Of a stretch of DNA of 64,000 nt, positions 14,521 to 14,692 are shown one piece after another (within the stretch, counting starts at the first letter, position 1; every line of letters starts with the position of its first letter). A program made the translations under genes and the position numbers. The notes below the pieces were generated by a model, which worked only from the letters and a program-made list of their open reading frames with translations, did not search any database and was not told the origin of the DNA. The DNA lies in NCBI GenBank assembly GCA_964016885.1, contig OZ024741.1, positions 321,966,001-322,030,000 on the forward strand, given 5' to 3'. This stretch comes from Eledone cirrhosa. Its lineage: Eukaryota.

Positions 14521-14692
14521 ATAAACGGAAAAAATGAAACGATATTTCATTTCCCACTCTTAGTACGGCTGTTACTTAAATATAAGTATAAGTATGTACA
14601 CGTACATACATATATGTATACCGACGTACAGTAGTATATACATACTACTGTACGTCGGTATACATATATGTATGTACGTGTACATACTTATA
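14521..14692. mobile_element. Fragment of the second HHR-element family (see 58669-59064) with a fold-back palindrome at 14587-14692
   Basis: The reverse complement of 14521-14640 matches 59000-59064 joined to 58669-58704. The palindrome has 51-bp arms around a 4-nt spacer. Confidence 0.8.

What the first reader, a model, noticed from the sequence alone, without database searches (positions are those of the whole stretch)
14521..14692. Circular permutation: this fragment joins the end of the 58.7-kb unit to its start
Seen: the reverse complement of 14521-14640 reads TACTACTGTACGTCGGTATACATATATG...ATATTTA (about 59009-59064, the end of the unit). It continues through the linker AGTAACAGCCGTACT into AAGAGTGGGAAATGAAA...TTTCATTTTTTCCGTTTAT (58669-58704, the start of the unit). 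Inference: the sister family also exists as a tandem or circular template of roughly 410 nt, and insertions begin at different registers, as expected when a circular or multimeric RNA is copied. The fragment lies at the far edge of the same microsatellite that flanks the 469-bp array.
Basis: partly seen in the sequence, partly recalled or inferred. Interest (0 to 1): 0.7.

Follow-up and report, generated by a model that had tools for sequence, protein, structure and literature searches.

The report
Two-armed scrap of a hammerhead retrozyme
This is a tiny back-to-back insertion of an abundant non-coding repeat that carries a self-cutting RNA motif; the supposed end-to-start join is ordinary inside sequence of the repeat, while the two fixed outer ends of its copies suggest that a Penelope-type jumping-gene enzyme copies it, probably often from a circular RNA.

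Summary
The permuted order is real, but it is not a special junction. The 25-nt 'end-to-start' sequence occurs 19,867 times in this genome, inside a 422-433-bp tandem unit that carries a minimal type I hammerhead motif (non-LTR retrozyme). The 58.7-kb copy is merely 5'-truncated. The fragment is two short arms joined 5'-to-5' in a (TA)n tract. 'Insertions begin at different registers' is half wrong: 5' ends are scattered, but 3' ends (the inferred reverse-transcription starts) sit at two sites about 57 nt apart (59 of 70 arms). In two-armed insertions one arm uses each site (55 of 56 classified pairs; 27 of 28 in the 469-bp sister family; 2 of 2 autonomous Penelope-like elements). That is the known Penelope 'tail'. 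A circular template is supported at family level: long arrays are clonal across both arms, one carries variants found nowhere else, and two alternate two unit types. Linear multimers are not excluded, and no RNA data were available. An RNA-editing idea failed its re-test. The scan has already reported this family and its two-ended anatomy from other DNA of this genome.

The parts
14521..14640 (-). Arm 1, 'tail-plus': monomer positions 368-422 then 1-59, with a 6-nt duplication at the body/tail border; its 3' end runs into (TA)n; no hammerhead
   Evidence: 113 of 114 aligned bases match the L050 monomer, one 6-nt gap
14521..14579 (-).
   Evidence: present on one arm only in 55 of 56 classified two-arm insertions
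14635..14692 (+). Arm 2, 'tail-minus': monomer positions 364-422; its 3' end runs into (TA)n
   Evidence: 61 of 62 aligned bases match
14587..14692 (.). Perfect 51-bp inverted repeat with a 4-nt loop, formed by the 5'-to-5' join of the two arms within the unit's internal TA run
13269..14520 (.). (TA)n/(CATA)n target microsatellite, left flank; shared with the 469-bp array
14693..14861 (.). (TA)n/(CATA)n microsatellite, right flank
58669..59063 (+). Single-arm, 5'-truncated, tail-minus copy of a sister subfamily (monomer 19 to the end; 13-nt deletion), in TA repeats
   Evidence: 386 identities, 9 mismatches to the L013 monomer
58823..58865 (+). Minimal type I hammerhead motif: stem I, CTGATGA, stem II, GAAA, palindromic helix III; predicted cut after 58859
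   Evidence: motif scan, pair covariation; no Rfam hammerhead hit
4784..13267 (.). Sister family A: 469-bp units in two arms joined 5'-to-5' at 7787/7788; minus arm 6.4 units tail-plus, plus arm 11.7 units tail-minus; 19 hammerhead motifs in the window, 18 of them here

Best explanation
The fragment is a very short two-armed insertion, in a (TA)n tract, of a 422-433-bp hammerhead-bearing tandem repeat, likely written by a Penelope-like reverse transcriptase/endonuclease borrowed in trans. Shown: the two-arm layout, two fixed 3' ends about 57 nt apart used one per arm, scattered 5' ends, TA targets, the hammerhead motif, and the same layout in autonomous RT+GIY-YIG elements of this genome. Inferred: the protein, probably as a dimer, nicks both strands of (TA)n; each nick primes cDNA synthesis at one of two internal start sites flanking the structured tail of the RNA; both cDNAs stop at random and are joined, here after about 120 and 60 nt. 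The template must run through the hammerhead cut site, so it would be an uncut multimer or a re-ligated circle. Circles (monomer or dimer) are the likelier template for the long clonal arrays (about 0.6-0.7); the fragment itself is too short to tell. It lacks the ribozyme and is likely dead on arrival.
For: Junction 19,867 times. At the tail-plus site 5,695 copies run into TA and 6,065 read through; the tail-minus end pattern occurs 3,601 times. Hammerhead-anchored arms: 29 tail-plus, 30 tail-minus, 11 other of 70; 5' starts of 234 arms compatible with uniform, KS p=0.38. Of 72 inverted 5'-5' pairs, 55 are plus/minus, 1 plus/plus, 0 minus/minus, and 16 have an unclassified end; 52 of 53 after removing local duplicates, p=6e-15. 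Family A: 27 of 28 pairs. Autonomous elements with RVT_1 and C-terminal GIY-YIG (4 of 5 ORFs hit both) show the same one-sided tail in 2 of 2 inverted copies examined (L096, L104) and carry minimal hammerheads with palindromic helix III. No pile-up of 5' ends at the cut site: 4 of 201 within 5 nt, 5.1 expected; 5 of 130 arms that reach it stop there. For circles: 18 of 18 and 15 of 16 full units identical across both arms (L271, window); 7 of 20 young loci have locus-private variants in every unit, 5 of them on both arms; the L292 variant pair occurs 14 times genome-wide, all in that insertion; L180 (10 units) and L166 alternate two unit types about 3.5-5% apart. Literature: PMC8557442 (inverted 5'-truncated copy, one-sided tail, microsatellite bias), PMC11167929 (two internal RT starts define the tail; both strands extended; dimer predicted).
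Against: No autonomous element sharing sequence with this family's tail or ribozyme was found among the 49 GIY-YIG loci examined, of 150 listed, so the partner is unnamed. No RNA evidence. Rfam gives no hammerhead hit, and the core is not significantly more conserved than the rest (2.0% vs 5.3% mean divergence, p=0.15; 59 of 76 units intact). Against monomer circles in family B: partner arms are identical in only 1 of 29 pairs (median 3.9% apart), and neighbouring units differ by 3% or more in 13 of 27 arms. The window's 469-bp array equals its subfamily majority and a 23-unit arm of nearly the same sequence exists, so a long linear source is possible. L298's private variants have no source copy anywhere in the assembly, so sources do go missing. 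Exceptions: one plus/plus pair (L239) and one minus/minus pair (L281). The family B/C sample comes from the first 61 Mb of contig 1 only.
Confidence: 0.85

Rival explanations
1. Same Penelope-type machinery, but the templates are only linear, uncut read-through transcripts of existing arrays; circles, if made, are not copied into the genome.
For: Heterogeneous neighbouring units in 13 of 27 arms; partner arms identical in 1 of 29; long near-identical arrays exist as possible sources; in vitro a PLE used unprocessed RNA and did not need ribozyme cleavage (PMC11167929).
Against: The 14-unit L292 array has variants on both arms that occur nowhere else; strict two-unit alternation over 10 units; the 13 family A monomers compared all differ from each other while each array is clonal.
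Confidence: 0.3
2. This fragment's second arm arose by fold-back: one tail-plus cDNA snapped back at the palindromic TA run and copied itself, instead of a second priming event.
For: The arms start within about 5 nt of each other and form a perfect 51-bp inverted repeat.
Against: Only 5 of 72 pairs start within 6 nt of each other (about 2 expected by chance); the short arm ends exactly at the family's tail-minus site, which unrelated-start pairs and single arms also use.
Confidence: 0.3
3. A satellite DNA spread at the DNA level (unequal crossover, extrachromosomal DNA circles), with the fragment a recombination remnant; no RNA step.
For: Clonal and period-2 arrays also arise by DNA-level amplification; local duplications of whole insertions were seen (L170, L224).
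Against: Strand-polar anatomy (fixed 3' ends, scattered 5' ends), obligatory plus/minus pairing, TA targeting and the identical layout of RT-encoding elements.
Confidence: 0.05
4. One reading: insertion starts at free registers around a circular template of about 410 nt.
For: 5' ends are spread over the whole unit; multimers exist.
Against: 59 of 70 3' ends fall in two windows that cover about a tenth of the unit; half of all copies of the tail-plus site end there.
Confidence: 0.04

Closest known systems
Metazoan non-LTR retrozymes (Cervera and de la Pena 2020, PMC7229834, parts 2-4 of 6 read; Li, Clavereau and Pollet 2026, bioRxiv 10.64898/2026.07.22.740005, parts 1-3 of 5 read)
   Same: Non-coding tandem units of a few hundred bp, G+C under 50%, one type I hammerhead per unit, thousands of copies, co-occurring with Penelope-like elements; both papers propose PLE mobilisation, the first from circular RNA.
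   Different: The parts read describe no two-armed inverted insertions, no fixed pair of 3' ends and no (TA)n targeting for retrozymes. Self-cleavage and circles are shown there, untested here. The ribozyme is the minimal type with palindromic helix III.
Penelope-like elements with C-terminal GIY-YIG (Craig et al. 2021, PMC8557442, passages read; Frangieh et al. 2024, PMC11167929, parts 1-2 of 4 read)
   Same: 5' truncation, partial tandems, an inverted 5'-truncated copy at the 5' end, a tail often at one end only, AT-rich or microsatellite targets, hammerhead motif; the tail lies between two internal RT start sites.
   Different: No ORF; tail 57-59 nt (about 70-79 in family A) rather than 30-40; no sequence match to a particular autonomous element found. 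Frangieh saw no strand difference in start site in bulk; here the two arms of one insertion almost never share a site.
Non-autonomous Chlamys elements such as MRC1 (PMC8557442, passage read)
   Same: Non-autonomous PLE partners with multicopy head-to-tail insertions.
   Different: Green alga; their clade mostly lacks canonical hammerheads; they resemble their autonomous partner at the 3' end, which was not found here.

Membership tests
Metazoan non-LTR retrozyme | Tandem units of a few hundred bp | tested here: met
   422-433 bp (B), 466-538 (C), 465-470 (A)
Metazoan non-LTR retrozyme | Type I hammerhead motif in each unit | tested here: met
   Motif scan; 24,254 matches of the B/C pattern; 9 of 13 pairs change on both sides in 6 related sequences (structure drawn by eye). 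Rfam gave no hit. The fragment itself lacks the motif.
Metazoan non-LTR retrozyme | Non-coding, G+C under 50% | tested here: met
   G+C 36-38%; longest ATG ORF 45-104 aa on trimers of four monomers
Metazoan non-LTR retrozyme | Self-cleavage | not testable with these tools
   needs in vitro transcription
Metazoan non-LTR retrozyme | Expressed as linear and circular RNA | not testable with these tools
   no RNA holder listed; laid contigs touched only the simple-repeat part
Metazoan non-LTR retrozyme | Target-site duplication longer than 4 bp when present | not tested
   cannot be read in (TA)n flanks; not attempted on the other copies
Non-autonomous Penelope-like element | Inverted 5'-truncated copy joined at the 5' end | tested here: met
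   72 such pairs among 235 arms; 4 adjacent 3'-3' pairs
Non-autonomous Penelope-like element | Optional 3' tail at one end (two RT start sites) | tested here: met
   55 of 56 and 27 of 28 classified pairs
Non-autonomous Penelope-like element | AT-rich or microsatellite target | tested here: met
   3' flanks; whole-genome patterns
Non-autonomous Penelope-like element | Sequence similarity to the terminal repeat of an autonomous partner | tested here: inconclusive
   none among 49 of 150 listed GIY-YIG loci; three loci had family copies nearby, none as the element's own 3' end
Autonomous Penelope-like element | ORF with RT and GIY-YIG | tested here: not met
   no such ORF in the unit

The most novel reading that the evidence does not exclude
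The genome records rolling-circle reverse transcription of a single ribozyme-made RNA circle (monomer or dimer) by a Penelope protein dimer: each subunit starts at its own side of one structured tail and goes round the same circle, giving two clonal arrays joined back to back. This would be direct genomic evidence for the proposed circRNA-to-genome step of animal retrozymes and would explain the inverted, one-tailed layout of Penelope insertions in general.
Probability: 0.5. Interest if true: 0.72.

Novelty: new member of a known kind. Interest (0 to 1): 0.48.

Why it matters
The fragment alone is debris. Its family ties two literatures together. Retrozymes were proposed to be mobilised by Penelope-like elements from circular RNA; here they carry the Penelope footprint (inverted arms, one-sided tail, TA targets) in thousands of young copies. 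The near-strict one-site-per-arm rule gives exact RT start sites and a prediction for the Penelope dimer that an existing in vitro system can test. Clonal arrays with private variants offer a genomic way to test whether circular RNAs are copied into chromosomes.

Tried and rejected
Rfam: only low-complexity miRNA matches in the 150 of 508 rows shown for the window and no hammerhead in the 58.7-kb unit. RNA: no RNA holder listed; four guessed-RNA runs matched only the simple-repeat part of the unit in three runs and nothing in one; no bearing on expression. ADAR-editing idea: in the first family A sample 12 of 19 locus-fixed variants were A>G on the RNA strand and none T>C, but the window's 'private' A>G pairs proved to be subfamily markers (671 and 615 units). 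Inside the young subfamily only 4 of 16 private fixed variants were A>G against 2 of 24 single-unit ones (p=0.20). In family B/C, A>G exceeded T>C in 1 of 3 subfamilies. Left as a weak lead. Cut linear monomers as main template: no 5' pile-up at the cut site. Autonomous partner search: none found. The partner-arm comparison had a register error and was redone. The broken APE+RT LINE at 43.3-47.6 kb shows no link to the family that I tested. Literature searches listed no paper on cephalopod retrozymes or on two-armed retrozyme insertions; subscription papers and the supplements of the papers read were not seen and may hold such data.

Full report
OBSERVATION. The minus strand of 14521-14640 does carry the end of the 58.7-kb copy, a short linker, and then that copy's start. 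Both pieces score far above 500 dinucleotide shuffles (97 vs at most 35; 53 vs at most 26).

THE JUNCTION IS ORDINARY INTERNAL SEQUENCE. The window lies in a 3.0-Gb animal assembly; that it is a cephalopod is my impression from recall, not tested. The 25-nt junction occurs 19,867 times with at most one mismatch, control 0, also in head-to-tail arrays with a period of 422-426 bp. Numbering the monomer from the junction, the fragment's minus arm covers 368-422 plus 1-59 (113 of 114 bases match, one 6-nt duplication) and its plus arm 364-422 (61 of 62). The 58.7-kb copy covers 19 to the end of a sister subfamily's monomer. Its 'start' is therefore a truncation point, and the permutation follows from that. 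Complete monomers (135 from the loci then held) fall into subfamilies of about 415-433 bp (B) and 466-538 bp (C). The 469-bp array in the window is a more distant family (A).

THE UNIT. Each unit is non-coding, 36-38% G+C, and holds a minimal type I hammerhead motif: stem I, CUGANGA, stem II, GAAA, a palindromic helix III and the cut triplet (window 58823-58865). The B/C pattern occurs 24,254 times, the family A pattern 4,878 times. On six related sequences, 9 of 13 pairs change on both sides, above all 500 shuffles and the slid controls; I drew the structure by eye and the set is small. Rfam does not report it. In arms not chosen for an intact ribozyme, 59 of 76 units keep all 11 core bases, and the core is not significantly more conserved than the rest (p=0.15). 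That minimal hammerheads of Penelope-like elements cleave as dimers is partly recalled; PMC7229834 shows it for axolotl retrozymes.

WHERE INSERTIONS BEGIN AND END. I mapped 235 distinct arms from 161 loci on the first 61 Mb of contig 1. Among 70 arms found through the ribozyme, hence unselected for ends, 29 end near position 59 ('tail-plus'), 30 near 422/3 ('tail-minus') and 11 elsewhere. Both sites run into (TA)n and both carry a few TA letters themselves. Genome-wide, 5,695 copies of the tail-plus site run into TA and 6,065 read on; the tail-minus end pattern occurs 3,601 times. The 5' ends of 234 arms are compatible with uniform (KS p=0.38, with mild excess in two of ten bins). They do not pile up at the ribozyme cut (4 of 201 within 5 nt, 5.1 expected), so cut linear monomers are not the main template. 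This fixed-3', free-5' polarity is that of target-primed reverse transcription (established knowledge).

TWO ARMS, ONE SITE EACH. There are 72 inverted pairs joined 5'-to-5'. Of these 55 are tail-plus with tail-minus, 1 plus/plus, 0 minus/minus, and 16 have an unclassified end; three of the 55 are local duplicates (52 of 53, p=6e-15 against even odds). Family A gives 27 of 28, with one minus/minus; the window's own array is one of them. [quoted passage not shown] Several carry minimal hammerheads downstream of the ORF. None shares sequence with family A or B, among 49 of 150 listed loci.

CIRCLE OR LINEAR MULTIMER. For circles: long family A arrays are clonal across both arms (18 of 18 units in L271, 15 of 16 in the window) while the 13 monomers compared all differ. 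In a young subfamily, 7 of 20 loci carry private variants in every unit, 5 of them on both arms. The L292 pair occurs 14 times in the genome, 9 on one arm and 5 on the other of that single insertion. L180 and L166 alternate two unit types, as a dimer circle would give. Partner arms are closer than the median other arm in 27 of 29 pairs. Against: partner arms are identical in only 1 of 29; neighbouring units differ by 3% or more in 13 of 27 arms; the window's array equals the subfamily majority and a 23-unit arm of nearly the same sequence exists; L298's variants have no source copy in the assembly, so a lost long source cannot be excluded; DNA-level amplification can also make periodic arrays. 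No RNA data bear on it. I put circles at about 0.6-0.7 for long arrays, with linear or dimeric templates common among short insertions. An ADAR-editing signal seen at first did not survive re-testing.

MECHANISM. Shown: anatomy, end statistics, target, motif, co-resident Penelope-like elements with the same anatomy. Inferred: a Penelope-type protein, probably a dimer, binds the structured tail region (folds), nicks both strands of (TA)n, starts one cDNA at each border of the tail, and the two cDNAs are joined where they stop. In the fragment both stopped within the unit's internal TA run, which allows a snap-back origin for its short arm (rival 2).

COMPARISON. It works like a non-autonomous Penelope-like element and meets the sequence criteria of a metazoan non-LTR retrozyme; cleavage and circular RNA are untested. 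PMC7229834 (parts 2-4 of 6) shows circles in coral, mussel and axolotl and proposes PLE copying. The 2026 preprint (parts 1-3 of 5) links retrozymes to PLE terminal repeats. [quoted passage not shown] PMC11167929 (parts 1-2 of 4) shows two internal starts bounding the tail, extension of both strands, a predicted dimer, and use of unprocessed RNA in vitro. Searches listed nothing on two-armed retrozyme insertions or cephalopod retrozymes; supplements and subscription papers were not seen. Earlier notes of this scan on other DNA of this genome, read after these analyses, describe the same family and ends; they are not independent support.

VERDICT. Observation partly confirmed, interpretation partly supported. 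The fragment is a dead scrap of a new member of a known kind. The interest lies in the family: a sharply quantified Penelope footprint on a retrozyme and testable signs of circle copying. Interest 0.48.

Noticed in passing
window 4784-13267: The 469-bp array is a two-armed insertion with one mismatch in 8.5 kb; it belongs to a young subfamily of about 600-700 units with arms of up to 23 units.
   Followed up: yes
window 43352-47614 (-): Broken LINE-type element: zinc knuckle, APE endonuclease and RT pieces in separate frames.
   Followed up: partly
window 40996-41973 (+): Frame with a weak zf-RVT match, below the family cut-off; probably another LINE piece.
   Followed up: no
window 14862-15007: About 145 bp of complex sequence interrupts the same microsatellite; not identified.
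   Followed up: no
L279:838-6106 (-): One A/G site varies among units in the order 0,0,1,1,0,1,1,0,1,1 on one arm, suggesting a period of three; the 7 units of the other arm read in L279 lack it.
   Followed up: no
L239:3235-3855: The one plus/plus pair belongs to a variant subfamily and both ends run into (TC)n before (TA)n.
   Followed up: partly
L091, L092, L096, L100, L102, L097: Penelope-like families with a variant minimal hammerhead core (U and A in place of the usual C3 and G8) and palindromic helix III.
   Followed up: partly
L299:433-2441: Three clustered A>G changes fixed in all units of both arms; the only clear editing-like cluster in the young subfamily.
   Followed up: partly
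window 35958-36066, 39405-39607, 49792-49956, 53980-54315: Dispersed 48-bp tandem repeat family; similar sequence lies just upstream of the 58.7-kb copy.
   Followed up: no
window 27447-27536 and 60551-60670: Two other long near-perfect hairpins (alignments).
   Followed up: no
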